DNA of 64,000 bases from an uncultured Planctomycetia bacterium (lineage in GTDB: Bacteria > Omnitrophota > Gorgyraeia > Pluralincolimonadales > Pluralincolimonadaceae): NCBI GenBank assembly GCA_964484255.1, contig CAZAEH010000003.1, forward strand, positions 19,937 to 83,936. The letters are read 5' to 3'. Under the pieces are notes generated by a model. It was not told the DNA's origin and did no database searches. It was given only the letters and a program-made list of their open reading frames with translations. Shown here in pieces: positions 20,207 to 45,998 of this stretch. Both the position numbers and the translations under genes were made by a program. The stretch's first letter is position 1. Every line of letters begins with the position of its first letter.

Positions 20207-20207
20207 A

Positions 20208-24367: not shown

Positions 24368-24396
24368 TTGACGAGCCTTGATACGTGTAATACAAT
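24368..24396 (+). promoter_or_regulatory. sigma70-type promoter TTGACG-17-TACAAT
   Basis: -35 TTGACG at 24368-24373, 17-nt spacer, -10 TACAAT at 24391-24396. Located 33 nt upstream of the ATG at 24429 (RBS GGAAGGAGAGG at 24413-24423). Confidence 0.45.
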
Positions 24397-24428
24397 TATA
24401 TACGAAATATGAGGGAAGGAGAGGCTAA

Positions 24429-24623
24429 ATGGATACAAATACGAAATATATAACAATGGATGAGGTCTCGAGATATCTAAGCCTCAGCGAGGGAAGTATC
24501 CGTAAGCTTATTAAAGAACAGAGTTTCCCGCATGTTAAAGTTTTGAGGAAATACCTGTTCAATAAGCTGGATATAGATGAGTGGCTTAAGATGCATTCTC
24601 AGGGCCTTAAGGCAAAAAAATAG
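24429..24623 (+). CDS. excisionase/MerR-superfamily helix-turn-helix DNA-binding protein
   Basis: 64 aa, …ITMDEVSRYLSLSEGSIRKLIKEQSFPHVKVLRKYLFNKLDIDEWL…. This matches the 'helix_turn_helix, excisionase family' pattern (LTxxEvAeyLxvSxxTiyrLikeGxxPxxKiGrrwrfxxxelxeWl). Confidence 0.6.
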   Translation: MDTNTKYITMDEVSRYLSLSEGSIRKLIKEQSFPHVKVLRKYLFNKLDIDEWLKMHSQGLKAKK

Positions 24624-24649
24624 CATTACCTTAACTTTTTAAAGGGGTT

Positions 24650-27600
24650 ATGCTGAGCCGAAGCTTAATCAAGATTATAACAGTAATATTTACCGCGTCG
24701 ACGGTATTGGTAGTGTTCGTATCCTGTCCGGGCGGTGCGGAAGAATCTTCTCCTGTCGAAGAATTACAGGCGGGAATAGATTGCAGTAATCTCTCGCTTG
24801 AGTCAGCCCTGAACAAGCTTTATGAAGTTGACAGGGATATCCAGATAGCCAAACTTGCCTCCGATGCCGCCGTGCTTGAAATAAAGGCAAGGAAATTGGA
24901 TACTTTCCTTCCCAAGATCAGCATAGCGGGAAGCGTGATAAAACCATTCGACCTCTTCAGCGATCTTGACCAACAGACAGATCTTTTCTCGGAACAGCAA
25001 TTGGTTATAGAGATGTCTATTACTTCCGACAGCCTTAATTATATCTCCAAAGACAGGAAGAACTATGAGGCGAGCCTGCTTGAGATCAAACAGGCCGTAA
25101 CGGAAAGGACAAGGAAACTTATATCTGTATATTATGCGGTTGCTTCAGCTCAGGAAAATTACCGCATGAGCTGTGATAATGTAGAAACTGTTGAAAAAGT
25201 AATAGAGCTTATAAAGGGGAGCCCCGAATACACCGAAACAGAGAAACTTGAATTAAAGAATTATCTGGGCATAGTCAATGAAAGAAAAATAGGGGCGTTG
25301 AATACCCTTATAAATACAAGACGGGACCTCAGGGGATTATTGGGATTGGAGGATAACGATGACCTGGAGATCGTTGTCCAGGAACTTCCCGGCAATGTGA
25401 ACAAGGATCCGGCCTTCGCCGAAAAAGCGGAGATAAGGCCCACTGACTATACGCTTGATATAGTCAAGAAGAGGAGCGAGGAAGCTTCCGTATCGGCCCA
25501 TATAGGCACCAGTCCCCGCCTGAAGCTTGCCTCAACTACTATACTCGGGCTGGCGGAAGGTAAAGGTACCAGGTTTGAAAGGAAAGTTATAACCGACACC
25601 CAGCTGGAGTTATTCGTTACTGATTTCGGCCATTCGGAAGGCTTGAACCGCACGAAAAGTTTGGAATCACAGATAGCCAGGCTTGAGGTGTTAAAGGCTT
25701 CGGAGGACCTTGAGTGTGATGATCTTATGGGAAACGCGAAAATCTCCGACCTCAGCAAGAAGATAGATAATTACAGGGAGTATATAGCGAAAACAGAAGA
25801 TACACTCAGGATGCTTAAGGAGAAACTCTCGCTCCCGGTCATCGAAGTAATAAGGATTAGCGATAACCTTTACAAGGCCAAGTATGCATTACAGCAGGCG
25901 TTGAGCGATTATACGGTAACCTTGTCGAAGCTAAAAGGTGTCGAGATTAAGCCGGAAAATATGAGCCCGGCTTACCAGGACATGGATCTCGGGGACCTGA
26001 TATCAAGAGGAGAAAGAGCGGATCTTCTTACGGCGAGACAGATAGCCGAGAAGAGGATAAAGGTAGAGAAGGTGCGTATAGGTGCAGAGAGGGCCGGTTA
26101 TCTTCCCAAGCTTTACGGAGCGGCAGTACTTGAGAACGTGAACATAAACGGCACGCCGTCCAAGAATACCAGGGCTTTCCTTGCCTTGGAAGGCCGCATA
26201 CTTAACAACAAGGTCGGGGCAGCGGTAAAAGCCGCCAAGGCCGGGCTCAAGGAAGCCGAATACGAAGGCAGGGCGCTCCAGAACGCTGTTGCAGATGAGA
26301 TAATAAAGAATTATCTTCTTGTCCTGCGTTTCACCAACACACTTAAGAGACTCAACGAGATAAAAGAGCTTAAGAGCGGTCTTATAAACGATATGCTTGA
26401 GGACATGAGAAGCAAGAACACTAAATACACAAATTCCGACATACTTCCCCTCGTCCTACAGCAACTGGAAGTGGACAGGGAGATCTCGAATGTCGAATTT
26501 TCCTTGGCAGTGGTCGAATACAACCTCAAGAGATGGACAGGGATACCGCTTAACGAAACTATAACGGTGAAAGACCTGCCCTTGTTCGGCAGCGAAGAAG
26601 GGTTGTCTGATTTTAAAATGATGCTTAAAGGGAAGGTGGCGCCTTATTACGACGGGATGGCTTCCGTAAAACAGGCGCTTAGTTCTGTTGAAAGAAAGAG
26701 GGCCGGTGAGACCAGGGCCTTAGCCTATGAAGGGGCCATATGGCAGGTCAGGTATGAGACCAAGGGTTCCGATTATGACGGCTGGGAAGACCCTGATAAA
26801 CAGCTTTCATTTAGTGTCTCGATCCCATGGGGAGATCATGCCGAGAAGGTTGCCAGGTCCGAAGCCGCCAGGGACCGTATAAGATCTGAGATAGAATACG
26901 CGAAGAGCATGGATTCGTACGAGAAGGAAAGGTTCGCCGTGAAGACCGCCTACGATGCCTCAAATGACCTGCTCGGGGATCTTCGAAATAAAATGGAAAA
27001 TGCCGGTTCCCAGTTCAGGATAACGGATGAACTTTTCAGGTTCGGGGGAAGGACCAAGCGCCAATGGGCGGATGCCCGCCTTGATTATGTAGTTTCTCAG
27101 CTTACCTATGAAGAGGCGATCTTCGATAATTACTATGCCAGCGCCAGGGAGATACTTTTTGTAGAAAAAGATTCCAGACCGGAGGGCGGGGAAAAGATAC
27201 TTTTGTCGGGCCTCCAGGAGGCGCTGGATCTTGCTTTGCGCAACAGCCGTGAGATCAAAAAATACGAAGATGCCCTTGCGCTCGAGGAAGAGTCCCTTAA
27301 CTATTATAAGATGATAAGGGTGAACGGTTCGGTAAGCAAAGGTTATTATGTAATGGACAACAAGGGTTCTCAGAAACGAAAGACAGTCCAGACGACTGGA
27401 GGGGTTATTTCGGCGGAAGTGGACCTTGTGAACAATCTTATGGTCAGGAAACAGGAATTAAGGGTAGAGTTGGCCAGGAAAGACCTCGAACAGGCCAAGT
27501 TCGATCTTAACATAAGGGTGGTCGATTCATACTGCAATTACCTGGCCTCGCTTGCGGAGTACTCCCAGGTAGGCGGTGAGTACGAAAAACAGAAAGCTGT

Positions 27601-28498
27601 GCTCGCAGGGATCGAGGAGCTTTACACGGCGGGGGCGGTAGCCCACGTAGATTACCTCAAGCAAAAGGAATTTGTAGAAAGCCTCCTGCAAAAAACAATC
27701 GATGTCCGGAAATATTGCGAGGGTTACAGGAGCAATCTCGGTATAGTGGTTGGAGGGCTTGACCCCAGGTTCTCCGTAATGAATATCGAAGTATATGACG
27801 AATCATCCAAGAAGGTTATGTTGGCCGATAACTGTGATATAAAAGAAAGGCTTACCGCCGAACTCGGGTCGGCGAAGAAGGAGCTGGAAGTGCCGTTGCG
27901 CGCGGACCTGCTGAAACGGACCGAATGCAATATAGGAATGGCCAGGCTCGATACCGAGGCCATATCAAAGCAGATCAAGTCCCTGACATTCAATCTCGAG
28001 TATACTTATCTTACCGACTTTATGGGGGCGGTAACAAGGAATGAGGCCATATTCTCACGCTATAATTCCCTCTCGGAGTTCATATCCCTTAATTCCATGG
28101 ATAAGATATTCGATCCTGCCACGGCCACCAAGGCGAGGGTAGCTGCGTTAAAGGAAAAGATAACGGCCCTCAAGTCGAAATCGTACATGTCTGAGGTGCT
28201 CCAGAATGCCCTCAGGATCTTCACCGATTATAAGATGGCCGTTTTGGACTATGAGAATTTTGAAAAGAACGTATCCGTGCTCGAGGAGCGGATGAGCGAG
28301 CTCATGCGCGCTGAAGAGGCGACCGGGGACATGCCTGTCGTAAGGATCAGGGAGATAAAAGAGACCCTGCTGAACAATAAAATAAAGGATATACAGGCTT
28401 ATTACCATATGGTCAGTCTTATGAACGAGCTTGACCGGTACCTTATGAGGTATACAGCCAAGGGCATCGATTCATATATAACTTACGTGTCAAAATGA
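24650..28498 (+). CDS. giant outer-membrane-factor (TolC/NodT)-like lipoprotein, 1282 aa
   Basis: Lipoprotein signal with lipobox (…LVVFVSC). Repeated OEP-like segments (LSLESALNKLYEVDRDIQIAKLASDAAVLEIKARKLDTFLPKISIAGSV; DLLTARQIAEKRIKVEKVRIGAERAGYLPKLYGAAVL; LSGLQEALDLALRNSREIKKYEDALALEEESLNYYKM…) lie within extensive predicted coiled coil. It is about three times the length of TolC. AAAGGGG RBS; stop overlaps the next start (ATGA). Confidence 0.45.
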   Translation: MLSRSLIKIITVIFTASTVLVVFVSCPGGAEESSPVEELQAGIDCSNLSLESALNKLYEVDRDIQIAKLASDAAVLEIKARKLDTFLPKISIAGSVIKPFDLFSDLDQQTDLFSEQQLVIEMSITSDSLNYISKDRKNYEASLLEIKQAVTERTRKLISVYYAVASAQENYRMSCDNVETVEKVIELIKGSPEYTETEKLELKNYLGIVNERKIGALNTLINTRRDLRGLLGLEDNDDLEIVVQELPGNVNKDPAFAEKAEIRPTDYTLDIVKKRSEEASVSAHIGTSPRLKLASTTILGLAEGKGTRFERKVITDTQLELFVTDFGHSEGLNRTKSLESQIARLEVLKASEDLECDDLMGNAKISDLSKKIDNYREYIAKTEDTLRMLKEKLSLPVIEVIRISDNLYKAKYALQQALSDYTVTLSKLKGVEIKPENMSPAYQDMDLGDLISRGERADLLTARQIAEKRIKVEKVRIGAERAGYLPKLYGAAVLENVNINGTPSKNTRAFLALEGRILNNKVGAAVKAAKAGLKEAEYEGRALQNAVADEIIKNYLLVLRFTNTLKRLNEIKELKSGLINDMLEDMRSKNTKYTNSDILPLVLQQLEVDREISNVEFSLAVVEYNLKRWTGIPLNETITVKDLPLFGSEEGLSDFKMMLKGKVAPYYDGMASVKQALSSVERKRAGETRALAYEGAIWQVRYETKGSDYDGWEDPDKQLSFSVSIPWGDHAEKVARSEAARDRIRSEIEYAKSMDSYEKERFAVKTAYDASNDLLGDLRNKMENAGSQFRITDELFRFGGRTKRQWADARLDYVVSQLTYEEAIFDNYYASAREILFVEKDSRPEGGEKILLSGLQEALDLALRNSREIKKYEDALALEEESLNYYKMIRVNGSVSKGYYVMDNKGSQKRKTVQTTGGVISAEVDLVNNLMVRKQELRVELARKDLEQAKFDLNIRVVDSYCNYLASLAEYSQVGGEYEKQKAVLAGIEELYTAGAVAHVDYLKQKEFVESLLQKTIDVRKYCEGYRSNLGIVVGGLDPRFSVMNIEVYDESSKKVMLADNCDIKERLTAELGSAKKELEVPLRADLLKRTECNIGMARLDTEAISKQIKSLTFNLEYTYLTDFMGAVTRNEAIFSRYNSLSEFISLNSMDKIFDPATATKARVAALKEKITALKSKSYMSEVLQNALRIFTDYKMAVLDYENFEKNVSVLEERMSELMRAEEATGDMPVVRIREIKETLLNNKIKDIQAYYHMVSLMNELDRYLMRYTAKGIDSYITYVSK

Positions 28499-31400
28499 GA
28501 CCGGAGATGGCCAAGAACGGCAAAAAGGTAATTATAGTATTGATAGCGGTGCTGGCGGTGCTGCTTGCCATGCGTTCATGCCACAGGCCTGCCTTCAAGG
28601 CGTCAGTCCGTGAACCTTCTCCGGCCGAGCCTGAGAAGGCGATACCGGTTACCGCAGCGAATCCTTTGGATAATTCAAAGCAAAAGGATGGCCCGATAAA
28701 TGCCGGCGAGTTGGCAACTTTCATACTCGAATGGTCTGATCCTGGTACGGGCCTTGTGCCTACCATGATAGCCAAGTCAGGCGAGAAGAACCCCTTTGCA
28801 GAGATGTCTTATGTGTATCCTCAGGCTCTTGCCCACCAGAATATGGTTATGGCCGGTCAGCACGAATTTTCTTCCAAGGTTGCCGGGTTGTTGATGGAAA
28901 GAGGGGAGACTAGGGACATTCCCAACGGTCTTAACGTAAGGACCGGGTTGAGTGAAGATCCCCTCATAACGGCAGGGCCCAACGCCTGGTGGGGAATAAG
29001 TTTCATAAGGGAATTTCAATTGAGCGGTGATGAAAAATGGCTTGCCGCGGCTGAACGCCGTGCCGAGTTCCTTATAAATCTCCAGGCGGACAACGGGGGC
29101 ATAAGGAAATACCCGTTCCAGGGCAATACGGAATATTATGCTAAGTCGACAGAGGAGAACCTGGACTGTTATGTCCTGTTCGGGATGCTTTACGATATCA
29201 CCGGTAATGGTGTTTACAAGAATGCCATGGACAATATCCTTAAATGGATGGTATCGAGCGGCGTATACAACATAAAAGGAGGGTATTTTACAGCCGGTAC
29301 TTCTAAAGACGAGATAAATGATGTTTATGCTACTGACGCAAACGCACTTGCCATTATAATCCTGGGGCCCGAGGTCCTGGATTCGGAGTTTGGAGTGAAA
29401 TTCGGGGGGATCCGCACAAGCCGCAGGTTGCTTGAGAACCTGGAAAGGGCAAGGGTAAAAGTAGATTATTTGCATCCTAGCGGGGTAAAGGTCAAGAACG
29501 TAGAGGGATTCGATTTTACCGATAAATTCGGCAGGCCGGGCAGAAAACCTGTGCTGTCTCCGGAGTTCTCTTCCCAGGTTGCACTGGCTTATCTTGTTAT
29601 GGCCAAGCACGCAAGGGATAAGGGGGATAATGAAACCGCGGTGAAGTTTGTCGATACGGCAAAGTTATACCTTGATAACCTAGGGCGTATGGCCGCAAGG
29701 ATGGGTGTTTCCGCGTCGCTTCCTTATGCTTCCGAAAAAGGGATCAGGCGCTACCCATTCGATAACTGGCTTACTCCGCAGGCGGATGCCGATATCTCGG
29801 CCACGTGGACGTCATTCCCTCTCTCCGGGTTTAACCCGTTTGACCTCAACGGATTCGCGTTGCGCGACTCACTCAAGGATATTGCTAAGTGGATGAACGA
29901 ACAGGGCAAGGTGACAAAACCCTCCAAAGCGATAGTTATCCCGGAGCAGGAGAGGGTGATATCTGAAGCGGAACTTATCGCGCAGCGGGAGGCCAGCAGG
30001 GATGCCGCCCTCAAGAAACCCATAGTTTATTATAAGGTCCTTTACGACCAGGTCCTCAAGGATGCTACGATAGCCAGGAAGAGGGCCATAGCAGTCCTGA
30101 TGACTAGCTATAATTGCTGGTTTGACGGGGTGTTGGATACGCAAAAACGGGATTATGATGTTATAGGTGTTGACGGCGGTTTCAAGATAATTTACAAGAA
30201 GTTCTCAGACCTCCCGGAGCCCCTGAGCAAAGCTATCAGGTCGGAATATGCCTATTTCGACGATTCGACCGGAATCAAATGGAGGATAGCACCGAAGTAC
30301 AACCTGCGCCTGGATGGTAATTATAAGCCTTATTATGCTTTTGAGATAGACGGCGACTACAACATAGTAAGGCAGTTCTCTTCCGAGAACGACTTGCCTG
30401 AGGCCAACAGGGAAGACCTTAAGAACCAGGCCCAGCAGTTCCAGTCCGCAAAAGACCTGCCAGAGGGCCATTTGATAGCCAGGTATTTTACAGCCCTTGA
30501 AGTTGACGCGGATATGAATATACTCCAATATTATGATTCCGTAGAAGACCTGCCGGGCCTTGTTTCTAAAGTACCTATTACCGAACAGGAATACAAGAAA
30601 TATGTAAACGCGCAGGACTGGCAGAGGGCAGACCTGATATCTGCCGGTGTGGTCCCTGACGACAAGGGCATGCTTGCTACCCAGGAACGCGGCATGTACT
30701 ACGCCAGGGTCCTTGGGCTTGATGAGACAAGGCGATTACGGGTGGGCGGCGTTTCGGTCAAGAGCGGACAGGAAATAGTCATGGGTACCAAGTTCAACCT
30801 CACGAATTGGAGGACGAGCGAGACCTCGAAGTTGAACGCCGTGAAATATGAGCGGGGCCTTATCGAGGGCATGGTCATAAAGCCAAGGAAAGAATTCACC
30901 GGGAGCAGACCTACCCCTACGCAGCCGTTATGGATATACCTCGGCAATGACGTGATAGCTTCGGAGACAAAAGAATTCAAGGAAAGGCTGCTTGAACTGC
31001 TCAAAAGGGTCAGGGAGGAGAAGGATGCGCAGACCCGCCTCGAACTGATCGAACAGTATGACCGCCTTTCCAACGAATTGGCCTGGTATGACGACGACGG
31101 GTTTATCCACGTAATATATTATGGTGCAAAAGCAGCCGAAAAAAGGTTAGGCGAATTCGAGGTGGCAAAAGAAAGGGCTGAATCCACCCTAAGGAGTTAT
31201 GAGTCCATACTGGGCAAGGACGAATTCGGACGAGACCTGCGTGATGCTTCGGGCAGGGTCTGGCTCAAGGTGGTCAATGAAGCTACCGGTAGGGTCCTTT
31301 ATGTGGAGGTCTATGATATTGCCGGTAACCTTGAGACCATATATTCCGAGAATATACAGATAGACCCGCTTACAAAAGTCGTTACTTCTGATATCAGGAC

Positions 31401-34400: not shown

Positions 34401-37400
34401 GTTCATAGAGATAACCCTCTTGATCCTGGCCGGAGTAATGCTGACGGTATTATTAATGAAACGGAGCCTTGGCAACTACAGGCCGGCTCACCTTGCAAGC
34501 GCGGAAAGCAGCGAGATAAGACGCTCTACCAGGCTGTTCTGGGTGATGTTCTTTTCCGCATCGTACCTGTGGGGCCTGTTCAGCATATTCGTGATAATTT
34601 GGACGGTCAGGATAATAATCAAACTTACGTTCGTGAACGCGGGCTGGGGCTTGTTCATCAACTCAAGCGCGCTGCTGCTTACGTTTACTTTCATACTTTC
34701 CAGTTTCTTCTCCCTGTTCTACATAATAATAGCCCTTATAGGTTTTTACCGGGGAAAGAGGGAAGGGGTCGGCCAGGTCATATCATGGGGCCAACTGAGA
34801 AGGAAATTCGGGTTATCGATGCAGCGTTTCTCGGATGTGATGATGCCCTCAGGGGGGCAGGCTTCCGGCCGTGCTGATGAAACGTGGAAGTCCTATTGGA
34901 ACGCCATGATAAAGGAACTCCATGATTACTATATAATAAGCGGAAGAGAGAAAGAGTCGCTTGTCTATTCATCCGGTAATCCCGCTCCGAAAATTGACAG
35001 GCCGCCGCGCGCCGAAGAGGCCTCGGAAAGGATAAGGATCTATATTAACAGTTGGCTCATGGAACTGCCCAAGGCGGAATCCTGGACGGATCTGCCTTCA
35101 CTGACGGCCATGATAACCGCTTTTAACGAACCTGTCAGTTTCACGTTCGATGAGCTCAACGGTTGCGACAGGGGCGCCGAAGTCACGAGGCTGAACCACC
35201 TGATAGGTTTTTACAGGCCCCAATGGGAAGAGTTTGTCAACAGGCTTGGCAGCTCCGATCTGGGGCAATTTGTGACACGGGAGCAACTAAAGCTGTTATT
35301 CGGCCTTAAGAGGCTCCCGGAAGGGCTGCCTGAACAGCTTAGGGAAAAGATACGCAAGTGGGCTAATCTTACCGTCCAGTGTGTTGAGAAGACGGTCGTG
35401 GAAGTATACAAGATACGGGACGCTTTTGCTATGTACGCCCGTATCTGTTACCCCGGGTTTTCCGACGGAGAGATAGAACGCATGGTTTCCGAGAAGGTCC
35501 AGATATTGCTCAACTATGAGGGGTATCATAGCCCCGCGACCAAGGATTCGGACAGGATAGCCTTGAGAAGATTAATGAAAGAGATGCCGAAGCTCAACGT
35601 TTATTGGTCCGCCAGCGATGCAGATTACACGTCCGGGGAAGACGAAACGGCCGTTGCCTATTTCAAGGGCGGCGACTGCGGCCTGCACAGGTATGATGAG
35701 GCTTCCGGCAGGATAGAACTTATAGAGACCGCGCCTTTTGTAGCGCCCGTTAAAAAAGGTAAGCCGAGCGGCCTAAACCAGGCCTTGCCTTTCATAAAAG
35801 GCGAGACCGTACTTTTCTTCGATGCCAACTGTTCTGTAAGGGTAGAGGATGCCGTAAAGATACCGGTGGCATTATCGGAGTTCAGGAACGATCCCGCTCT
35901 CGGAGAGGTCCTGTTCGCGGAGTATATATTCAACAAGAATTACTCATGGATATCTCAGGCGATAGGTTTCAACGAGGAGACGTTCGTATCCGTTACGCAA
36001 CGCACCCTGAATATATTCCAGGCCTGCGGTTTTTACGGCCATAGTGCGATCATAAGGACCGATATGATAACAGCTGCGGGAGGTTTTCCGCAGGACTACA
36101 TATCAGAGGATATACTGTTGGCTACATCTCTTTGGAAGAAAGGTTTCAGGACCGCTCACAAGGAGTACTTGCTCTTCGGTAAAGGCAGGGAGACCTCATA
36201 TTTTACCAGCCTTGTCCCGCTTACAAAATGGGCCATGGGATCTTCCGATGCCGCCATAGGCAGGGTAATCCCCGGTATATTGGATTCCGAGAAACTGCAC
36301 GTAGCCCAGAAGTTCATGCTTATGTTCGGGTTCTCGTTCTTCTACCAGACTCCGCTAATGTTTATAATCAATTTTCTTTACCTGTGGTTGATGATATGCT
36401 GGGGTATAAACGGTTTCATGGCCGTGCCGTATCCTATAGTATTCGGTATATTGGGGCTGCTTTTCAACCAATCTATAACCGCAACGGGTATCGCATACCT
36501 GCTTGAACATTTTGGATTCAGGAAATCTTTCTCGGCATATTTGAGGCTGGTTGCAAAGAACCATTTCTTCTACGCATCGGTCATACCGGCGTATGCCTTC
36601 GGGTTCCTCGCCGGACTTAAAGGGAAGGCTATATTCATAATAAGCCCGAAAGGGTGGAACCTCGGCCATTTACCGCTTAAGATCATCTGGGGGGAGAAGA
36701 GGGACATACTCAAGGCTTCCATGTTCAGCACGATAATAGGCCTGCCTTTGGCCTATGTGGCGGTGGCGACGAAGTCAATGCCGTTGTGGCTTAGCCCGTT
36801 CATACCGTTCCTGCCTTTTGCCATAGTTGCCTTGATGTATACCGCCGGGGTCAAATGGAACAAGATAGGAATACCGTACCTTAAGAACTGGCGCGACGAG
36901 GTAGTCCCTGACGGGGATATAGGGAAGATGTCGGTGATCAAACTGCAGATGATATATGCCGTGGTCCTTCTCGTCTTCACGGGAGTGGGTTTCGTCATGT
37001 GGGGCCTGATATTCTCATCACTGGCGGTCAAGGCGTTGTTCATATTCTCGGCTCTGTACATAAGTACGACGTTGTCTTTCATAATAATGCCGCTTTTTGC
37101 CCATTCGCAGCCTATAGCACTCTTCAAAGAGTTGACGATCTCGAGGTTCTGGAACTTTGTGATAATGCCGTTGCTGTTTGTTTGTGTTGTCCTGGGCATC
37201 AGTTCTATAGCCTCGGGACCGGCTACTGCGTCTCCTGAATCGGTGGTCTATACACTGCTAGGTATATCTTCCCTGATAGGTTGGGCGTTGCTGAAATGGA
37301 AACTCAGCGGTTATACTCGATTGAATAAATGGCTGAAGAATAACCTGCAAGGCTACCCGGCTGCTTCTTCGGTCCAGAAGTCCGATCTTATGGACGACAT

Positions 37401-37854
37401 GTATTTTTCGCACCAGGAACTCATACAGAGCGACAGGCAGGCCGAGATAAGGTATAACAGGGTACTGGGCAAGGTAAAAGCCGTGTTCATATTTACTATC
37501 CTGTTGACACTCCTGCTCTATTTTGCCTCAGAGTTCAACGCGAAATGCTATTCTCACTGGTTATGGGTTTTTGTGGTGTTAGAGGCAGCGTATATGCTAA
37601 TCCTGAACGTAGAGCATACCTCCGATGACAGGGTCTACCTGGGCAAGTTTTACAGCAGCGTGATCATCAATGATTTTAACAGGCTTAATGAGAACGTCAG
37701 GGCAATGGAAGATATCTGGAAGAAACTGGACCGCGCCTACAAAGCCAAGCTTGTGAGGATCTATGAGGATGAGGTGAGAGCCAAGAAAGCGGTCACGATC
37801 TATATGTCCAGGTGTATAAAGGCGTTCTCGACAGACTTCCAGAAGATTACCTAG
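28495..37854 (+). CDS. 3119-aa multidomain membrane protein: N-terminal anchor + periplasmic GH8-like region + polytopic processive GT2 (cellulose-synthase-like) glycosyltransferase
   Basis: Single 9.36-kb ORF, ATGA-coupled to the upstream gene. N-terminal TM at aa 12-27. GH8-signature-like YATDANALAIIIL at about aa 280. TM at about aa 1610. Two TM clusters flank a cytoplasmic domain. That domain has K-x-x-GLNQAL, an F-F-D-A-N-C D-x-D equivalent, an S-E-D…KGFR TED equivalent, and an L-T-K-W-A-M-G QxxRW equivalent, in the spacing seen in BcsA/chitin/hyaluronan synthases. Confidence 0.6.
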   Translation: MRPEMAKNGKKVIIVLIAVLAVLLAMRSCHRPAFKASVREPSPAEPEKAIPVTAANPLDNSKQKDGPINAGELATFILEWSDPGTGLVPTMIAKSGEKNPFAEMSYVYPQALAHQNMVMAGQHEFSSKVAGLLMERGETRDIPNGLNVRTGLSEDPLITAGPNAWWGISFIREFQLSGDEKWLAAAERRAEFLINLQADNGGIRKYPFQGNTEYYAKSTEENLDCYVLFGMLYDITGNGVYKNAMDNILKWMVSSGVYNIKGGYFTAGTSKDEINDVYATDANALAIIILGPEVLDSEFGVKFGGIRTSRRLLENLERARVKVDYLHPSGVKVKNVEGFDFTDKFGRPGRKPVLSPEFSSQVALAYLVMAKHARDKGDNETAVKFVDTAKLYLDNLGRMAARMGVSASLPYASEKGIRRYPFDNWLTPQADADISATWTSFPLSGFNPFDLNGFALRDSLKDIAKWMNEQGKVTKPSKAIVIPEQERVISEAELIAQREASRDAALKKPIVYYKVLYDQVLKDATIARKRAIAVLMTSYNCWFDGVLDTQKRDYDVIGVDGGFKIIYKKFSDLPEPLSKAIRSEYAYFDDSTGIKWRIAPKYNLRLDGNYKPYYAFEIDGDYNIVRQFSSENDLPEANREDLKNQAQQFQSAKDLPEGHLIARYFTALEVDADMNILQYYDSVEDLPGLVSKVPITEQEYKKYVNAQDWQRADLISAGVVPDDKGMLATQERGMYYARVLGLDETRRLRVGGVSVKSGQEIVMGTKFNLTNWRTSETSKLNAVKYERGLIEGMVIKPRKEFTGSRPTPTQPLWIYLGNDVIASETKEFKERLLELLKRVREEKDAQTRLELIEQYDRLSNELAWYDDDGFIHVIYYGAKAAEKRLGEFEVAKERAESTLRSYESILGKDEFGRDLRDASGRVWLKVVNEATGRVLYVEVYDIAGNLETIYSENIQIDPLTKVVTSDIRTDIEYDKDTLQVVGGHTYRTDENGEWLSDLSESIFKGYTPDKKYFVSEVHVFARDEDGRIIFEDGKARYTKKIEYYTPEGDISAQIVKNIITIVKYGPDQEVTKEVFLESPGKTLSDEVPNLENLTQGLAWVRRYKTTGKIMNFKEALTKSLTSLPEGERERQAILILNRLGAEKVGRVSDSLVLEENEVTNNLIGDPNAPGETPYFVFYEPGDSLGRQRLIVRGGTIEVPVDWIAETEIPAKTLTFNLAGELVSISDVDNSVRADSILSPKYIKRMEPLGIYADTLLPQMKKRIFRMVTGEDGLPHFTNTVAITTVSYMIPDDVLGRELVNVKFVMLGDETTLHKGSKLKLKKNMFGRDTLLESWKDDRGEDRTRAIAKKEDTVIYEWYKEGLEVDELRELLKSEYGKLIKRKALDEAMNNIEKAPFGTLPGYHIIEPGGRVGEIKYFSGTLEYPRSVFSHPMIKIPYEPEVKPFKLPDGPPIRGVKYGVLNSDYAFYDVHSLSGQLIVLERRFIILRLMNILPIQGGRQTEYYDPLVPYSYLRPIKIERYFKPGTQPEGTQPGTQIVAVFLGDASVYHRNGWQTQTFLERRPFDIEHWIRSDYEFDDNGVYKYKKEHIESSSVYLMKTIRWQKPLLSAVLFAGALFMSGYISRRRLKAGRTRRIKVAEDEARVQAPPKGAIAPFNKALLERSNVPEEVKKACIDVYEGNKPPSVLFAVVMEKFRPLLEERFRGFGADPSRHTAGINVIIKRIADRIGREEIILGNLFAVEAREFEKWSAKNGSGIRLSGLGNKPDELALVALFRLIFDESVEFRAAVPGFRNYLLDKSLGILRSGKGPDVLKEIRSDVQVFIEALRPGYDKKLGLIKEYIFTYDDMNDLFEGKRPGFITSFAKLAGASAEQKLLFLATKGGKEPSSDPKSYKSYAWMKTFPDKAGIPQFVDNLRRFWEFLVPIFSVVTLGGAAIALKLLPFAGRIEQLSVHLVGILSPIARLSPNVLAVFIEITLLILAGVMLTVLLMKRSLGNYRPAHLASAESSEIRRSTRLFWVMFFSASYLWGLFSIFVIIWTVRIIIKLTFVNAGWGLFINSSALLLTFTFILSSFFSLFYIIIALIGFYRGKREGVGQVISWGQLRRKFGLSMQRFSDVMMPSGGQASGRADETWKSYWNAMIKELHDYYIISGREKESLVYSSGNPAPKIDRPPRAEEASERIRIYINSWLMELPKAESWTDLPSLTAMITAFNEPVSFTFDELNGCDRGAEVTRLNHLIGFYRPQWEEFVNRLGSSDLGQFVTREQLKLLFGLKRLPEGLPEQLREKIRKWANLTVQCVEKTVVEVYKIRDAFAMYARICYPGFSDGEIERMVSEKVQILLNYEGYHSPATKDSDRIALRRLMKEMPKLNVYWSASDADYTSGEDETAVAYFKGGDCGLHRYDEASGRIELIETAPFVAPVKKGKPSGLNQALPFIKGETVLFFDANCSVRVEDAVKIPVALSEFRNDPALGEVLFAEYIFNKNYSWISQAIGFNEETFVSVTQRTLNIFQACGFYGHSAIIRTDMITAAGGFPQDYISEDILLATSLWKKGFRTAHKEYLLFGKGRETSYFTSLVPLTKWAMGSSDAAIGRVIPGILDSEKLHVAQKFMLMFGFSFFYQTPLMFIINFLYLWLMICWGINGFMAVPYPIVFGILGLLFNQSITATGIAYLLEHFGFRKSFSAYLRLVAKNHFFYASVIPAYAFGFLAGLKGKAIFIISPKGWNLGHLPLKIIWGEKRDILKASMFSTIIGLPLAYVAVATKSMPLWLSPFIPFLPFAIVALMYTAGVKWNKIGIPYLKNWRDEVVPDGDIGKMSVIKLQMIYAVVLLVFTGVGFVMWGLIFSSLAVKALFIFSALYISTTLSFIIMPLFAHSQPIALFKELTISRFWNFVIMPLLFVCVVLGISSIASGPATASPESVVYTLLGISSLIGWALLKWKLSGYTRLNKWLKNNLQGYPAASSVQKSDLMDDMYFSHQELIQSDRQAEIRYNRVLGKVKAVFIFTILLTLLLYFASEFNAKCYSHWLWVFVVLEAAYMLILNVEHTSDDRVYLGKFYSSVIINDFNRLNENVRAMEDIWKKLDRAYKAKLVRIYEDEVRAKKAVTIYMSRCIKAFSTDFQKIT

Positions 37855-39226
37855 TGTTGTAGCTTTCCTTCAGGACTTCGTGATAGTAAAGCCAATCGTC
37901 ACTAACCTTCTTCATAGCGCTATAGAGGTTCCTGTAATCATCATAGATGTCGCATTCGAACTCTATATTACGCCTTCCGCTTAAGAAATTGGCGAACAGC
38001 TTGTAGTTCATCTCTTTACGCAGGAAGTTCTTCTTTTTAAGGGCATAGAAGAGAGAGCCGTTGCCCTCGAAGCAATTCATTATCCTGACCCATTCGCAGG
38101 CTATGAAGATGCAATTCTTATAGCTTCCAAAAAGATCGATAGTATCGCAATCGATAAATACGCACGATTCCAGTTTACTCGAAGGCTTTATCTTCTTGCT
38201 CCTGACGAAATAATTGCCGTATTCATCCGGCTTAGCTATTTGTGCAGTAAGTTTTCTCAAAAGTTCCAGGTAGGTCATTATATTCGACGCCCAGTCTATC
38301 CAGTATCCTTTGGCTACCGCGCCGCCTACGCTTATCTCATATTGCTGCAGGCATTCACGCATGGCCAACTGTATCTTTGAGAGGGCTTTTTTGTTGAGGA
38401 CAAGGGATTCGCAGACAAGTTTATTGAAGCTCCATTCAGTTGCGTTCAAGTGGGTGATGAAGTCCTTGTTCTTTTCCTTTGAACAGAAAAGATCAAGAGC
38501 ATTTTGGAGCTTGTCTATGCCTTCCTTGGTCATAAAAAGCTGGAAAGTATTTGCCAGCGTCATGTTCTTTCCGAATTTGGGTATTAATTTCTCGTCAAAG
38601 GTCTTCTCGTAGAAGCATGAAATGGAGTTGTCCTCTCCGAGTTTTGCCGTTCCCAGGCTTCCCAGAGCCTTGTTTATCTGGACGGGAGTGAAGAGCATGG
38701 AAGCGGTATTTTTGTTAAGGGATTTGAGGAGCCCGCCGATATCTATATCTGAGTAGTCGAAATACTGGTCTATGGGTAATATTACTACCGTATTTTTTAA
38801 AAGCGGGATACTTTTTGCTATGCAGGGAAGAAGCATATCCGGCGCCCTGCCTTCGGGGAATCTTATGCTTGCCTTTGACGGGGTCCCGAACTCATAAGAG
38901 AGGGGGAAGATCCTGGTGGCCAATCCGGCGTCATGTATGTATATAATAGTATCGAAGGAATCGAGCTTTTTCTTTGACAGGAGTTTTTTTATGCGCTCGT
39001 GCGTCCTGAGGTAACCGGTAAGGTTTCCCCTGGTCTGTCCGAGCTCCGCCATGCCTATAAGCTCGACCTCTATTACCTTGTTGTATTTTTCCCTTAGTTT
39101 CTTTTTGAAGAACTGCCTTAGATCAGGCGAGAATTCAAGTTTGTCGTAGGAATTCAATACAAGAAGAACGCGGTCCGCGACCTCGTTCTTGACCTTAAGG
39201 TTTTCACTGCAATTCGTATTAGCCAT
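37847..39226 (-). CDS. hypothetical protein with NDP-sugar pyrophosphorylase-like motif (lower-GC gene)
   Basis: 459 aa, K/N/F/Y-rich, from visibly AT-richer DNA than its neighbours. Contains HDAGLATRIFPLSYEFGTP, resembling the G-x-G-T-R-L-x-P-L-T motif of sugar-1-phosphate nucleotidyltransferases. No convincing RBS at the annotated ATG, so the start is uncertain. Its 3' end overlaps the giant gene's 3' end by 8 nt. Confidence 0.4.
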   Translation of the reverse strand: MANTNCSENLKVKNEVADRVLLVLNSYDKLEFSPDLRQFFKKKLREKYNKVIEVELIGMAELGQTRGNLTGYLRTHERIKKLLSKKKLDSFDTIIYIHDAGLATRIFPLSYEFGTPSKASIRFPEGRAPDMLLPCIAKSIPLLKNTVVILPIDQYFDYSDIDIGGLLKSLNKNTASMLFTPVQINKALGSLGTAKLGEDNSISCFYEKTFDEKLIPKFGKNMTLANTFQLFMTKEGIDKLQNALDLFCSKEKNKDFITHLNATEWSFNKLVCESLVLNKKALSKIQLAMRECLQQYEISVGGAVAKGYWIDWASNIMTYLELLRKLTAQIAKPDEYGNYFVRSKKIKPSSKLESCVFIDCDTIDLFGSYKNCIFIACEWVRIMNCFEGNGSLFYALKKKNFLRKEMNYKLFANFLSGRRNIEFECDIYDDYRNLYSAMKKVSDDWLYYHEVLKESYNTR

Positions 39227-39241
39227 TTAGGAAAATATACT

Positions 39242-39258
39242 CTTTTTTGCCAAAAAAG
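39242..39258. promoter_or_regulatory. 8-bp inverted repeat CTTTTTTG-C-CAAAAAAG in divergent intergenic region
   Basis: Perfect palindrome arms at 39242-39249 and 39251-39258, between the divergently transcribed 459-aa gene and cvpA. Candidate operator. Confidence 0.3.
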
Positions 39259-39277
39259 TCAAGTATTTTACCGTACC

Positions 39278-44264: not shown

Positions 44265-44341
44265 GGGCCCATAGCTCAGTTGGTTAGAGCAGCTGACTCA
44301 TAATCAGCGGGTCATAGGTTCAAGTCCTATTGGGCCCACCA
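44265..44341 (+). tRNA. tRNA-Met (anticodon CAT; elongator-type, could alternatively be tRNA-Ile2 if lysidinylated)
   Basis: Cloverleaf: acceptor GGGCCCA/TGGGCCC, D-arm AGCTCAGTTGGTTAGAGC, anticodon stem GCTGA/TCAGC with loop CTCATAA, T-arm GGTTCAAGTCC, encoded CCA. Fully paired 1:72, so not an initiator. Confidence 0.85.
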
Positions 44342-44347
44342 TTTTTT

Positions 44348-44424
44348 GGGCGATTGGCTCAGTTGGTTAGAGCGCCACATTCACATTGTGGAGGTCAAAG
44401 GTTCGAATCCTTTATCGCCCACCA
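44348..44424 (+). tRNA. tRNA-Val (anticodon CAC)
   Basis: Acceptor GGGCGAT/ATCGCCC, D-arm GGCTCAGTTGGTTAGAGC, anticodon stem CCACA/TGTGG with loop TTCACAT, T-arm GGTTCGAATCC, encoded CCA. Confidence 0.8.
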
Positions 44425-44447
44425 TTTCACACCCCTGGGAGCGCCAA

Positions 44448-45973: not shown

Positions 45974-45998
45974 TTAAATTTCAGGAGTGTGAGCTGGT

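What the first reader, a model, noticed from the sequence alone, without database searches (positions are those of the whole stretch)
24368..39226. Candidate undescribed synthase-dependent glycan synthesis/export module: HTH regulator, giant TolC-like lipoprotein, and a translationally coupled 3119-aa hydrolase-synthase fusion
What the sequence shows:
- A near-consensus promoter (TTGACG-17-TACAAT) drives a 64-aa excisionase-type HTH gene.
- Next is a 1282-aa lipoprotein (lipobox FVSC) with several TolC/OEP-like repeat segments.
- It is ATGA-coupled (28495-28498) to a 9.36-kb ORF. That ORF's product has an N-terminal anchor, a periplasmic region of about 1500 aa with a GH8-like signature, and a C-terminal polytopic domain. 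The C-terminal domain carries the K-x-G-L-N / D-x-D / (S)ED / (L)xxKW motif series of processive GT2 beta-glycan synthases.
- A convergent lower-GC gene carries an NDP-sugar-pyrophosphorylase-like G-x-x-T-R-x-x-P-L motif.

Established background: synthase-dependent exopolysaccharide systems (cellulose BcsA/B/Z/C, PNAG PgaABCD, alginate Alg8/44/K/E) combine an inner-membrane GT2 synthase, a periplasmic hydrolase or lyase, and an outer-membrane porin.

Inference: here the same logic appears in a very different layout. The hydrolase-like and synthase modules are fused into one giant polypeptide, and the outer-membrane partner is a triple-length TolC-family lipoprotein rather than a TPR/beta-barrel porin. 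I do not recognise this architecture as a described system.
Basis: partly seen in the sequence, partly recalled or inferred. Interest (0 to 1): 0.85.

Follow-up and report, generated by a model that had tools for sequence, protein, structure and literature searches.

The report
Bacterial FKS-like glycan synthase, triple-TolC duct
An uncultured Omnitrophota bacterium has a conserved gene set that looks like an undescribed way for bacteria to make and export a polysaccharide: a fungal/plant-type (GT48, FKS-like) sugar-polymer synthase fused to a very large periplasmic domain, a TolC-like outer-membrane channel made as one triple-length chain, and a dedicated sugar-activating enzyme.

Summary
The genes are real, at the stated coordinates, and conserved.

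**What the parts are**
- **Outer-membrane protein (1282 aa).** It carries six consecutive Pfam OEP repeats, equal to three TolC protomers in one chain.
- **Giant ORF (3119 aa).** Its order is TM anchor, about 1570 hydrophilic (periplasmic) residues, TM, cytoplasmic linker, then a polytopic synthase.
- **Synthase family.** The best matches are eukaryotic GT48 enzymes, not GT2 (Pfam Glucan_synthase 1.6e-26; yeast FKS1 2e-11). It keeps the GT48-specific D-A-N motif in place of D-x-D, plus ED and GKGR.
- **"GH8-like" part.** This is a short, weak GH76-like match to an (α/α)6 barrel.

**Conservation**
- Related loci were found in Omnitrophota, Auribacterota and UBP3.
- In Auribacterota-like genomes the giant is split into two genes.
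- In the Omnitrophota clade a diguanylate cyclase and a repeat protein always precede the module. The HTH gene is not a core part.

**Interpretation**
The most likely function is an envelope-spanning, synthase-dependent glycan synthesis and export machine. I found no publication describing it. The polymer, the sugar donor and the duct docking are all inferred.

**Limits**
AlphaFold failed on the duct protein. No experiment exists.

The parts
21477..23054 (+). dCache-HAMP-GGDEF diguanylate cyclase. The active-site motif is GGEEL, with an RESD I-site 5 aa upstream. It is an accessory part conserved in the Omnitrophota clade.
   Evidence: Pfam GGDEF 1.5e-43, dCache_1 3.3e-18, HAMP 8.9e-11. Motifs read. 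It precedes the module in L001, L003, L004 and in L022, L024, L025, L027, L028 at 65-87% identity.
23036..24328 (+). Protein of about 430 aa with an N-terminal hydrophobic segment and about 13 tandem 29-aa MORN_2-like repeats. It overlaps the cyclase gene and is an accessory part conserved in the Omnitrophota clade.
   Evidence: Pfam MORN_2 6.2e-8. Repeats read. Homologues at 49-63% identity sit in the same position in L001, L003, L004, L022-L025, L027, L028.
24368..24396 (+). Sigma-70-like promoter candidate, TTGACG-17-TACAAT.
   Evidence: 10 of 12 match, located in the 100-bp gap before the HTH gene. This is a consensus match only.
24429..24623 (+). 64-aa HTH_17 / excisionase-family DNA-binding protein. 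It is present only in close relatives.
   Evidence: Pfam HTH_17 2.9e-11 and TIGR01764 3.4e-11. An 81% identical copy is in L001. No such gene is called between the repeat-protein gene and the OEP gene in L003 or L004.
24650..28498 (+). 1282-aa single-chain triple TolC-like outer-membrane factor. It has a signal peptide with a lipobox Cys26, then six OEP repeats, equal to three protomer equivalents (aa 40-440, 441-850, 851-1282).
   Evidence: Pfam OEP 7.6e-25 for the whole protein. The sixths score 5e-9, 0.03, 1e-5, 2e-5, 7e-6 and 0.1. Each third hits OEP in 6 of 6 homologues (best 9e-13, 1e-10, 4e-10). Six amphipathic hairpin candidates recur about every 200 aa and three linker segments about every 400 aa.
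28495..37854 (+). 3119-aa fusion protein: periplasmic arm plus GT48-like synthase.
   Evidence: Intact ORF. Eleven full-length homologues at 46-100% identity come from independent assemblies.
28528..28584 (+). TM1 (aa 12-30), an N-in signal anchor preceded by KNGKK.
   Evidence: Kyte-Doolittle peak 2.46.
28672..29874 (+). Periplasmic (alpha/alpha)6-barrel-like module (about aa 60-460), distantly GH76-like. E220-E221 is invariant among six homologues.
   Evidence: Pfam Glyco_hydro_76 5.1e-7 over aa 163-272. The family profile hits GH76 alpha-1,6-mannanases 5agd/4bok at about 1e-6 over 88 residues. The same module recurs with the synthase in P0018 and P0024.
29875..33303 (+). About 1140 further hydrophilic residues (aa 461-1603) of unknown fold. 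Inferred to be periplasmic and to bridge to the duct.
   Evidence: No Pfam hit at E<=1. 43% identical to the separate 1661-aa protein of L005.
33304..33360 (+). TM2 (aa 1604-1622), followed by RRRLKAGRTRR on the cytoplasmic side.
   Evidence: The gene split in L005 falls just after this helix.
33361..34239 (+). Cytoplasmic region (aa 1623-1915) of unknown fold.
   Evidence: K+R 53 against D+E 39. No Pfam hit.
34240..34752 (+). First TM cluster of the synthase (aa 1916-2086).
   Evidence: It is collinear with the TM helices that precede the GT domain in a eukaryotic-type GT48 protein.
34753..36312 (+). Cytoplasmic GT48-like glycosyltransferase domain (aa 2087-2606). Key residues are F2210/E2212, K2423, D2443-A-N2445, E2538-D2539 and G2562-K-G-R-E2566.
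   Evidence: Pfam Glucan_synthase 1.6e-26, 93.2 bits against a cut-off of 37.2. Yeast FKS1 2.4e-11, BcsA 7e-7. Residue equivalences taken. Conservation in 150 representatives: D 148/150, N 129/150, E 145/146, D 143/146, K 139/142.
36313..37617 (+). Second TM cluster (aa 2607-3041, roughly 10-12 helices), followed by a 78-aa cytoplasmic tail.
37847..39226 (-). 459-aa divergent sugar-1-phosphate nucleotidyltransferase with a C-terminal beta-helix-like part. It is convergent with the giant and overlaps its 3' end by 8 nt.
39234..39262 (-). Promoter-like site TTGACT-17-TATATT in front of the nucleotidyltransferase gene.
   Evidence: 10 of 12 match. This is a consensus match only.

Best explanation
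This is a chromosomal module for making a polysaccharide at the inner membrane and passing it through the whole envelope.

**Proposed steps**
1. The convergent 459-aa enzyme makes an NDP-sugar in the cytoplasm.
2. The C-terminal half of the 3119-aa protein is a processive FKS/callose-synthase-type (GT48-like) glycosyltransferase. It polymerises the sugar and threads the chain through its own transmembrane channel. By analogy the product is a beta-glucan. The D-A-N motif suggests metal-independent catalysis, as in FKS1.
3. The N-terminal ~1570-residue periplasmic arm of the same polypeptide receives the chain. It carries a GH76-like (alpha/alpha)6 module that may trim or transfer the chain.
4. 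The arm hands the chain to a TolC-like duct built from one 1282-aa chain holding three protomer equivalents. Such a duct is asymmetric, which would suit 1:1 docking with a monomeric partner and no separate adaptor protein.
5. In Omnitrophota, an upstream sensor diguanylate cyclase suggests c-di-GMP control.

**Shown here:** the domain identities, catalytic-motif conservation, hydropathy pattern, gene fusion and fission, and strict co-occurrence.

**Inferred:** the polymer and donor identity, the docking of arm and duct, export to the outside, and c-di-GMP control.
For: **Synthase**
- Pfam Glucan_synthase 1.6e-26.
- FKS1 structures at 2e-11 with collinear K / DAN / ED / GKGR motifs.
- These residues are kept in 129-148 of about 150 representatives.
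- Named eukaryotic GT48 proteins hit at 6e-19 to 3e-15 in a 1.84-billion-protein library. Full-length relatives of those proteins reach 8e-28.
- One such relative (P0079) aligns over 715 columns that include the flanking TM helices.

**Duct**
- OEP hits in all six sixths.
- OEP hits in each third of all six homologues tested.
- Six hairpin candidates with a period of about 200 aa.

**Topology**
-.

**Coupling**
- ATGA overlap.
- The OEP gene is directly followed by the giant in the four loci from the giant look-up (L001-L004) and in 5 of 5 informative loci from the OEP-seeded scan.
- The nucleotidyltransferase is convergent-adjacent to the synthase in 11 of 11 informative loci.
- L005/L006 encode the same four functions as separate genes in the same order: OEPx3 at 29%, arm at 43%, synthase at 46%, nucleotidyltransferase at 52% identity.
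- The (alpha/alpha)6 module and the synthase recur together in other giant proteins.

**Nucleotidyltransferase**
-.

**Cyclase**
-.
Against: - There are no experimental data.
- No usable structure of the duct was obtained (AF2 pLDDT 39.8). Profiles of its thirds find no TolC in the PDB.
- The three thirds show no detectable similarity to each other.
- No PilZ or other c-di-GMP receptor is recognisable.
- About 1140 periplasmic residues have no known fold.
- The GH76-like match covers only about 90-110 residues, and the GH76 catalytic Asp pair could not be placed.
- In L004 an MFP and an ABC transporter follow the giant in place of the nucleotidyltransferase, so the duct could also serve a pump.
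Confidence: 0.6

Rival explanations
1. The synthase makes a periplasmic or envelope-bound glycan that is not exported, comparable to osmoregulated periplasmic glucans or a wall-like layer. The periplasmic arm processes or attaches the glycan. The TolC-like protein serves as a membrane tether or carries another cargo.
For: The arm holds a glycosidase/transglycosylase-like (alpha/alpha)6 module. Fungal GH76 proteins of the Dfg5 type cross-link wall components (abstracts listed). No adaptor gene or docking evidence was found. L004 has an MFP-ABC pair next to the module.
Against: The duct gene is adjacent to the giant in every informative locus. Its stop overlaps the giant's start in the window and L004, and the adjoining tblastn coordinates in L022, L023, L025 and L026 indicate the same. 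In the scans run here, homologues of the duct were found only next to the giant.
Confidence: 0.2
2. The module is part of the predatory or host-dependent apparatus proposed for Omnitrophota. The arm acts on a partner cell's surface glycans, and the synthase and duct lay down or inject a glycan at the contact site.
For: GT48-like domains sit in many Omnitrophota giant proteins of 2000-7900 aa. Published work links Omnitrophota giant proteins to host or prey interaction (abstracts).
Against: The hydropathy pattern places the arm between two TM helices, so in the periplasm rather than on the cell surface. The papers read do not mention this protein type. Nothing in the locus points to a partner cell.
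Confidence: 0.12
3. This is a type I secretion or efflux pair: the giant protein is a secreted adhesin, or a pump that uses the TolC-like channel.
For: The pairing is a TolC-family gene next to a giant gene.
Against: The giant has about 18 hydrophobic segments and a conserved glycosyltransferase active site. No ABC, RND, MFS or MFP gene was found among the window ORFs scanned. No RTX or adhesin repeats were found.
Confidence: 0.03
4. The 9.36-kb ORF is an assembly or frameshift artefact that joins two genes.
For: The two halves are separate genes in L005/L006.
Against: Fused ORFs of 3035-3131 aa occur in many independent assemblies from NCBI, JGI, ENA and Logan.
Confidence: 0.01

Closest known systems
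Eukaryotic GT48 beta-1,3-glucan synthases (yeast FKS1/GSC2, plant and oomycete callose synthases)
   Same: This is the best-scoring family for the synthase half. The shared motifs are K, D-A-N, YGH, E-D and GKGR(D/E). The GT domain lies between two TM clusters, and the alignment extends into the flanking helices.
   Different: The protein is bacterial and has no Rho1-type partner. It carries an added ~1600-residue N-terminal periplasmic arm and works next to an outer-membrane duct. The residue equivalent to N1085 is Gly in this clade. The product and donor are unknown. Only 22% identity was seen over the 715-column alignment to P0079.
Bacterial cellulose synthase system BcsA-BcsB-BcsZ-BcsC, and the Pga and Alg systems as the same kind
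   Same: The logic is the same: a processive inner-membrane synthase, a periplasmic partner anchored by a TM helix next to the synthase (BcsB-like position), a glycosidase-like module, an outer-membrane exit, and a nearby diguanylate cyclase. BcsA is the second-best solved relative (7e-7).
   Different: The motif is DAN, not DxD, and there is no QxxRW (L-T-K-W instead). No PilZ domain is recognisable. CelA scores 26.7 bits against a cut-off of 699. The exit is a TolC-type duct, not a TPR plus beta-barrel porin. The glycosidase-like module is GH76-like, not GH8.
TolC / OprM / NodT outer-membrane factors of tripartite pumps and type I secretion
   Same: It hits Pfam OEP repeats above the cut-off. 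The window protein has a lipobox, as in the NodT/OprM type. NCBI names homologues 'TolC family protein'.
   Different: There are six repeats in one chain, whereas the known family has two per protomer and forms a homotrimer. The thirds are mutually unrecognisable. TIGR01844 and TIGR01845 score 15.7 and 14.3 bits against cut-offs of 225 and 210. There is no adaptor or transporter gene, and the partner is a glycan synthase.
Curdlan synthase CrdS and cyclic beta-1,2-glucan synthase Cgs (from my own knowledge, not tested here)
   Same: Both are bacterial membrane beta-glucan synthases. Cgs is also a giant multi-domain fusion of a synthase with a glycan-processing domain.
   Different: CrdS belongs to GT2. 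Cgs belongs to GT84 with a cytoplasmic GH94 domain. Neither is GT48-like, and neither is paired with a TolC-like duct.
Sugar-1-phosphate nucleotidyltransferases with a C-terminal beta-helix (GlgC, GMPPB, and the pyrophosphorylase part of FKP)
   Different: The window protein itself has no Pfam hit at E<=0.1. The loop reads A-G-L-A-T-R. Identity to solved enzymes is 10-16%. The specificity is unknown.
Omnitrophota giant proteins described in the West-Roberts et al. 2023 preprint and the 2026 complete-genome preprint
   Same: The phylum is the same. GT48-like domains occur in other 2000-7900-aa proteins of this phylum.
   Different: Those papers report GT1, GT5, dockerin and repeat architectures. 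They do not mention glucan synthase, GT48 or TolC.

Membership tests
GT48 (FKS / callose synthase) | Match to Pfam PF02364 Glucan_synthase above the curated cut-off | tested here: met
   93.2 bits against 37.2, E 1.6e-26, aa 2172-2642 on profile positions 4-502 of 819.
GT48 (FKS / callose synthase) | D-A-N motif in place of the GT-A D-x-D (FKS1 D1102-A-N1104) | tested here: met
   D2443-A2444-N2445 aligns to the FKS1 DAN. D is kept in 148/150 and N in 129/150 relatives.
GT48 (FKS / callose synthase) | Catalytic E-D (FKS1 E1221-D1222) and the GKGRD segment | tested here: met
   E2538-D2539 and G2562-K-G-R-E2566. Conservation is 145/146, 143/146, and K 127/143, R 123/143.
GT48 (FKS / callose synthase) | UDP-glucose-binding residues Y849, E851, K1082 and N1085 | tested here: inconclusive
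   F2210, E2212 and K2423 are kept. The N1085 position is G2426 in this clade, while most of the bacterial family has N.
GT48 (FKS / callose synthase) | GT domain inserted between TM bundles (6 before, 11 after in FKS1) | tested here: inconclusive
   Hydropathy shows a cluster of 4-6 helices before and about 10-12 after. No structure or dedicated topology predictor was available.
GT48 (FKS / callose synthase) | Makes beta-1,3-glucan from UDP-glucose | not testable with these tools
   This needs an enzyme assay and linkage analysis.
GT2 processive synthases (BcsA type) | D-x-D, Q-x-x-R-W and a C-terminal PilZ domain; membership of TIGR03030 CelA | tested here: not met
   DAN instead of DxD. L-T-K-W instead of QxxRW. 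No PilZ hit or motif. CelA scores 26.7 bits against a cut-off of 699.1. Glyco_trans_2_3 matches only weakly (34.3 against 27).
TolC / outer-membrane factor family | OEP repeats (Pfam PF02321) | tested here: met
   88.2 bits against 22. All sixths and all thirds hit OEP.
TolC / outer-membrane factor family | Two OEP repeats per protomer of about 430-500 aa, assembling as a homotrimer | tested here: not met
   Six repeats lie in one 1282-aa chain, and the homologues are 1251-1370 aa.
TolC / outer-membrane factor family | 12-stranded barrel plus a long alpha-helical tunnel | tested here: inconclusive
   Six two-strand hairpin candidates and long predicted helices are present. The AF2 model is unusable (pLDDT 39.8), and there is no PDB hit by profile.
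TolC / outer-membrane factor family | Works with an adjacent adaptor (MFP) and an ABC, RND or MFS transporter | tested here: not met
   None was found among the window ORFs scanned. Only L004 has an MFP-ABC pair nearby.
GH76 alpha-1,6-mannanases | Full-length match to the (alpha/alpha)6 domain | tested here: not met
   The Pfam hit is just above the cut-off (30.0 against 25.9) but covers only profile positions 89-207 of 366. The PDB match covers 88 residues.
GH76 alpha-1,6-mannanases | Two adjacent catalytic Asp residues (D124/D125 in the Bacillus circulans enzyme, PMC9213526) | tested here: inconclusive
   The pair lies outside the aligned stretch. I infer that it sits just before the aligned W-W segment, where this family has the invariant A-G-P-N. 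An invariant E220-E221 lies elsewhere in the module.
GH8 | Match to the GH8 family model | tested here: not met
   No such hit at E<=0.1.
Sugar-1-phosphate nucleotidyltransferases (Pfam NTP_transferase; GlgC-like) | Family model match | tested here: inconclusive
   The window protein has no hit. 9 of 18 close family members do hit (best 2.2e-8). The profile hits GlgC at 0.005.
Sugar-1-phosphate nucleotidyltransferases (Pfam NTP_transferase; GlgC-like) | Nucleotidyltransferase fold followed by a beta-helix domain | tested here: met
Synthase-dependent exopolysaccharide secretion systems (Bcs, Pga, Alg) | c-di-GMP receptor on the synthase or its co-polymerase | tested here: not met
   None is recognisable. 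Only an upstream cyclase gene is present.
Synthase-dependent exopolysaccharide secretion systems (Bcs, Pga, Alg) | TPR scaffold plus beta-barrel porin as the outer-membrane exit | tested here: not met
   No such gene is present. A TolC-like gene takes this position.
GGDEF diguanylate cyclases | GGDEF domain with a GG(D/E)EF active site and an RxxD I-site | tested here: met
   148.8 bits. The active site reads GGEEL (F to L), with RESD 5 residues upstream. Activity was not tested.

The most novel reading that the evidence does not exclude
Omnitrophota and their neighbours hold a large, unrecognised bacterial branch of the GT48 (FKS / callose synthase) family. In this module it runs a new type of synthase-dependent secretion machine. 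A monomeric synthase reaches across the periplasm with its own ~1570-residue arm and docks 1:1, without an adaptor protein, to an asymmetric TolC duct made as one chain. This bacterial branch would then be the sister or the source of the eukaryotic beta-1,3-glucan synthases that build fungal and plant walls.
Probability: 0.3. Interest if true: 0.9.

Novelty: new variant of a known kind. Interest (0 to 1): 0.78.

Why it matters
- **GT48 in bacteria.** GT48 enzymes are treated in the literature I could search as eukaryotic wall and storage-glucan synthases. FKS1 is the target of the echinocandin antifungals. A broad bacterial branch of the family would give a prokaryotic outgroup for its origin. 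The search found 462 representatives at E<=0.001, the best of them in Omnitrophota. It might also give simpler proteins for mechanistic work.
- **A new export route.** All three textbook synthase-dependent systems leave the cell through a TPR/beta-barrel porin. A TolC-type duct fed by a glycan synthase would be a different solution.
- **A natural single-chain TolC.** A single-chain, asymmetric TolC is itself a natural experiment in breaking the three-fold symmetry of this channel family.
- **Omnitrophota surface biology.** For Omnitrophota, which are uncultured, very small and thought to depend on other cells, the module points to a surface polymer that nobody has looked for.

Tried and rejected
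**Attempts that gave nothing usable**
- AlphaFold2 on the 1282-aa protein (aa 48-1247, 8-sequence alignment) gave pLDDT 39.8. I did not use the model.
- Self-BLAST and hhalign between the thirds and sixths of that protein found no significant internal similarity.
- Profiles of each third against PDB sequences found no TolC-family chain.
- The afdb50 fold library was not available.
- Segment-wise Pfam scans of the giant (aa 480-1602, 1623-1915 and 2640-3119) found nothing at E<=1.
- A PilZ-like motif search in the giant found nothing.
- Rfam found no riboswitch or other RNA in the module.
- I could not place the GH76 catalytic Asp pair, because the alignment stops short of it.

**Readings rejected**
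- GH8: no hit.
- BcsA-type GT2 membership: DAN in place of DxD, no QxxRW, no PilZ, and CelA far below its cut-off.
- An adhesin/T1SS pair: the giant is polytopic, carries a glycosyltransferase active site, and has no ABC or MFP partner.
- A mobile element, despite the excisionase-type HTH: the neighbours are housekeeping genes and the synteny is conserved.
- An assembly artefact: many independent assemblies carry the fused ORF.

**Literature**
- Searches for Omnitrophota with glucan synthase, GT48 in bacteria, PF02364, and fused TolC found no description.

Full report
**1. The observation**

All four ORFs exist at the stated coordinates.
- TTGACG-17-TACAAT lies at 24368-24396, in the 100-bp gap before the 64-aa gene. 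Such 10/12 matches are common in this region: 40 sites against 23.6 +/- 5 in shuffles. The position supports a promoter more than the score does.
- The stop of the 1282-aa gene overlaps the ATG of the 9.36-kb ORF (ATGA, 28495-28498). Public gene calls start four codons later (P0001, 3115 aa, 100% identical).
- The overlap is also seen in L004. Adjoining coordinates in L022, L023, L025 and L026 suggest the same arrangement there.
- Two descriptive items fail. There is no GH8 signal, and the "D-x-D" is D-A-N.

**2. Organism and setting**

- The nearest genome record is Candidatus Omnitrophica bacterium UBA6215. Its nucleotidyltransferase is 98.9% identical at the amino-acid level and its giant about 96%.
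- The module sits among housekeeping genes: SecDF, RecJ, RecG, plsX-fab, an acyl-CoA dehydrogenase with ETF, DnaG, RpoD, RNase P RNA and the dcw cluster.
- It is therefore chromosomal and not obviously mobile.

**3. The 1282-aa protein**

- Pfam OEP scores 88 bits (E 7.6e-25).
- Cut into six equal pieces, every piece hits OEP in a plausible register: 5e-9, 0.03, 1e-5, 2e-5, 7e-6 and 0.1.
- Cut into thirds, each third hits OEP in all six homologues tested, at 26-65% identity (best 9e-13, 1e-10, 4e-10).
- The sequence shows six pairs of alternating hydrophobic/polar strand candidates at aa 89-127, 290-327, 487-519, 696-727, 890-927 and 1110-1156.
- It also shows three similar linker segments at aa 231-248, 631-648 and 1026-1063.
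- Known TolC-family proteins have two OEP repeats per protomer and form a trimer with a 12-stranded barrel. This protein therefore holds three protomer equivalents in one chain.
- The thirds are not detectably similar to one another, so the channel would be asymmetric.
- AlphaFold failed (pLDDT 39.8), and profiles of the thirds find nothing in the PDB. The fold therefore rests on the Pfam profile and on the sequence pattern.
- The lipobox Cys occurs only in the window's close clade.

**4. The giant protein: topology**

The hydropathy pattern is:

| Segment | Residues | Note |
|---|---|---|
| TM1 | 12-30 | preceded by KNGKK |
| Hydrophilic stretch | 34-1603 | |
| TM2 | 1604-1622 | followed by RRRLKAGRTRR |
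| Basic hydrophilic stretch | 1623-1915 | K+R 53, D+E 39 |
| TM cluster | 1916-2086 | |
| Loop | 2087-2606 | 520 aa |
| TM cluster | 2607-3041 | |

By the positive-inside rule the first long stretch is periplasmic and the loop is cytoplasmic. This is inference; no dedicated topology predictor was available.

**5. The giant protein: synthase**

- The loop and its flanks match Pfam Glucan_synthase (GT48) at 1.6e-26. Glyco_trans_2_3 scores 2.7e-8. NCBIfam CelA reaches 26.7 bits against a cut-off of 699.
- Among solved structures the best matches are yeast FKS1 and GSC2 (2e-11 to 9e-9), ahead of BcsA (about 7e-7).
- A review of FKS1 lists its key residues (PMC12715860). The FKS1 alignment gives these equivalents:

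| FKS1 residue(s) | Window residue(s) |
|---|---|
| Y849 / E851 | F2210 / E2212 |
| K1082 | K2423 |
| D1102-A-N1104 | D2443-A-N2445 |
| E1221-D1222 | E2538-D2539 |
| GKGRD | GKGRE (2562-2566) |

- A full scan of 1.84 billion representative proteins gave 462 hits at E<=0.001 and 58 at E<=1e-30.
- All the named high-ranking hits are "hypothetical proteins" of Candidatus Omnitrophota, or of unclassified bacteria whose cluster mates are labelled Auribacterota. Many are 2000-7900 aa long.
- Eukaryotic GT48 proteins follow: Allomyces at 6e-19, a Thraustotheca callose synthase at 3e-16 and Physocladia at 3e-15. Full-length relatives of these reach 8e-28.
- One such relative (P0079) aligns over 715 columns, including TM helices on both sides of the GT domain.
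- Across the 150 best hits the catalytic residues are nearly invariant.
- Many bacterial members read GKPxNQ / DxNQ(D/E) / YGHPD / NEDIFGG, very close to the eukaryotic enzymes. The window's clade is more derived: GKPSGLNQ / DANCS / YGHSA / SEDILLA.

**6. The giant protein: periplasmic arm**

- Residues 163-272 match GH76 (5e-7, just above the cut-off). They also touch other (alpha/alpha)6 families weakly.
- A six-sequence profile of aa 1-500 hits Bacillus GH76 alpha-1,6-mannanases at about 1e-6, but over 88 residues only.
- GH76 is defined by two adjacent catalytic Asp residues (PMC9213526). I could not place them.
- This family has an invariant A-G-P-N where I expect the pair, and an invariant E220-E221 elsewhere.
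- The remaining ~1140 periplasmic residues have no Pfam hit.
- The same (alpha/alpha)6 module recurs upstream of a GT48-like synthase in two other giant proteins, P0018 and P0024. This argues for a functional link between the two domains.

**7. The convergent 459-aa gene**

- The window protein itself has no Pfam hit. Nine of 18 family members hit NTP_transferase, and the family profile touches GlgC collinearly.
- The AlphaFold model is good over aa 15-380 (mean pLDDT 76.5).
- Foldseek ranks ADP-glucose pyrophosphorylases first (2e-11).
- Invariant R105, D153 and E207-K208 lie where I recall GlgC's catalytic motifs. GlgC was not aligned here.
- The protein is therefore a sugar-1-phosphate nucleotidyltransferase of unknown specificity.

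**8. Conservation and linkage**

- Omnitrophota loci at 46-76% identity keep the order OEPx3 then giant.
- A genome-wide scan seeded with the nucleotidyltransferase found 14 loci among 185,579 species genomes. They come from Omnitrophota, Auribacterota and UBP3, plus a few probably mis-binned contigs. In all 11 loci with enough flank, the synthase lies convergent and adjacent.
- A metagenome scan seeded with the OEPx3 protein found 7 loci. The giant follows in all 5 with downstream flank. The cyclase and the repeat protein precede in all 5 with enough upstream flank.
- In the Auribacterota-like L005/L006 the same functions are four separate genes in the same order: 1321 aa (29% identical), 1661 aa (43%), 1447 aa (46%), and a convergent 460 aa (52%). 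The split falls just after TM2.
- This fusion/fission pattern shows that the arm and the synthase are distinct modules that belong together.
- The HTH gene is seen only in close relatives.

**9. Upstream genes**

- The dCache-HAMP-GGDEF protein has an RESD I-site and a GGEEL active-site motif.
- The next protein consists of about 13 MORN_2-like repeats behind a hydrophobic N-terminus.
- Both are conserved with the module within Omnitrophota, but L005 does not have them.
- No c-di-GMP receptor is recognisable in the giant.

**10. How it most likely works**

The domain identities, motif conservation, hydropathy pattern and linkage are shown. The steps below are inferred.
1. The nucleotidyltransferase supplies an NDP-sugar.
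2. The GT48-like domain polymerises it and translocates the chain, as FKS1 and BcsA do.
3. The covalently attached arm takes the chain. It may cut or transfer it with the (alpha/alpha)6 module.
4. The arm leads the chain into the single-chain TolC-like duct. No adaptor gene is present, and an asymmetric duct fits a single monomeric partner.
5. c-di-GMP from the neighbouring cyclase may regulate the system.

A beta-glucan is the most economical guess for the product. The altered donor-site residues and the GDP-sugar-like fold match keep other sugars open.

**11. Comparison and novelty**

- The module works like the Bcs, Pga and Alg synthase-dependent systems, but it is not a member of any of them. 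It fails the GT2/PilZ and porin criteria.
- The synthase meets the sequence criteria of GT48.
- The duct meets the OEP criterion but not the two-repeat, homotrimer architecture.
- Public annotation names the parts "glycoside hydrolase family 76 protein", "glycosyltransferase family 2 protein" and "TolC family protein".
- No paper I could search describes bacterial GT48-like synthases, a six-repeat TolC, or this module. A published GT48 phylogeny is described only in terms of eukaryotic groups and is midpoint-rooted (PMC7965971).
- I rate it a new variant of a known kind, of high interest. The function is untested and the duct structure is unconfirmed.

Noticed in passing
Proteins P0014-P0161 (not in the window): GT48-like synthase domains are widespread in Omnitrophota giant proteins of 2000-7900 aa, all annotated as hypothetical. 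The scan gave 462 representatives at E<=0.001. Some bacterial members (for example P0029 and P0038) have active-site motifs almost identical to those of eukaryotic FKS and callose synthases.
   Followed up: partly
P0018 (5601 aa), P0024 (6932 aa), P0012 (4735 aa): Two other giant proteins carry both the (alpha/alpha)6 module and the GT48-like synthase, in the same order. A third, with SecA and HEAT-repeat Pfam hits, carries the (alpha/alpha)6 module alone.
   Followed up: partly
L004:16685-20630: In one Omnitrophota relative the giant is followed by a periplasmic adaptor (MFP, 346 aa) and a fused ABC transporter (932 aa) in place of the nucleotidyltransferase. The TolC-like duct there might also serve a pump.
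   Followed up: no
L005:1-888 and L005:17357-23372: In the Auribacterota-like genome the split module is preceded by a protein that looks like another (alpha/alpha)6 barrel. It is followed by a GH35/42 beta-galactosidase-like gene, a GntR/periplasmic-binding regulator and a GH94 glycan phosphorylase.
   Followed up: no
window 23036-24328: This protein consists of about 13 tandem 29-aa repeats (G-x-x-C-A-K-G-T-x-x-G-F-Y-E-S-G-K-L-Q-Y-A-T-L...) behind a hydrophobic N-terminus. It is always paired with the cyclase gene, and its function is unknown.
   Followed up: partly
window 21477-23054: The diguanylate cyclase has GGEEL instead of GG(D/E)EF, with a canonical RxxD I-site. Whether it is active is unknown.
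   Followed up: no
window 44265-44424, 44346-45179 and 45596-45976: tRNA-Met, tRNA-Val and RNase P RNA (class A, 194.8 bits) lie here. The mechanical ORF starting at 44346 (CT398-like coiled coil plus zinc ribbon) overlaps tRNA-Val, so its real start must be further downstream.
   Followed up: no
window 18246-21449: An acyl-CoA dehydrogenase is followed by EtfB and an EtfA that carries an N-terminal two-cluster ferredoxin domain. This arrangement resembles electron-bifurcating Bcd/Etf-type complexes. It lies directly after the fab genes.
   Followed up: no
L012, L018, P0198: Contigs labelled Planctomycetia, Polyangiales and Dehalococcoidales carry homologues of module genes at 45-89% identity. 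They are probably mis-binned DNA from Omnitrophota or related lineages.
   Followed up: no
window 585-1754 and 45999-47096: A SpoIID-like protein and a T2SSE-family secretion ATPase are encoded in the flanks. No link to the module was seen.
   Followed up: no
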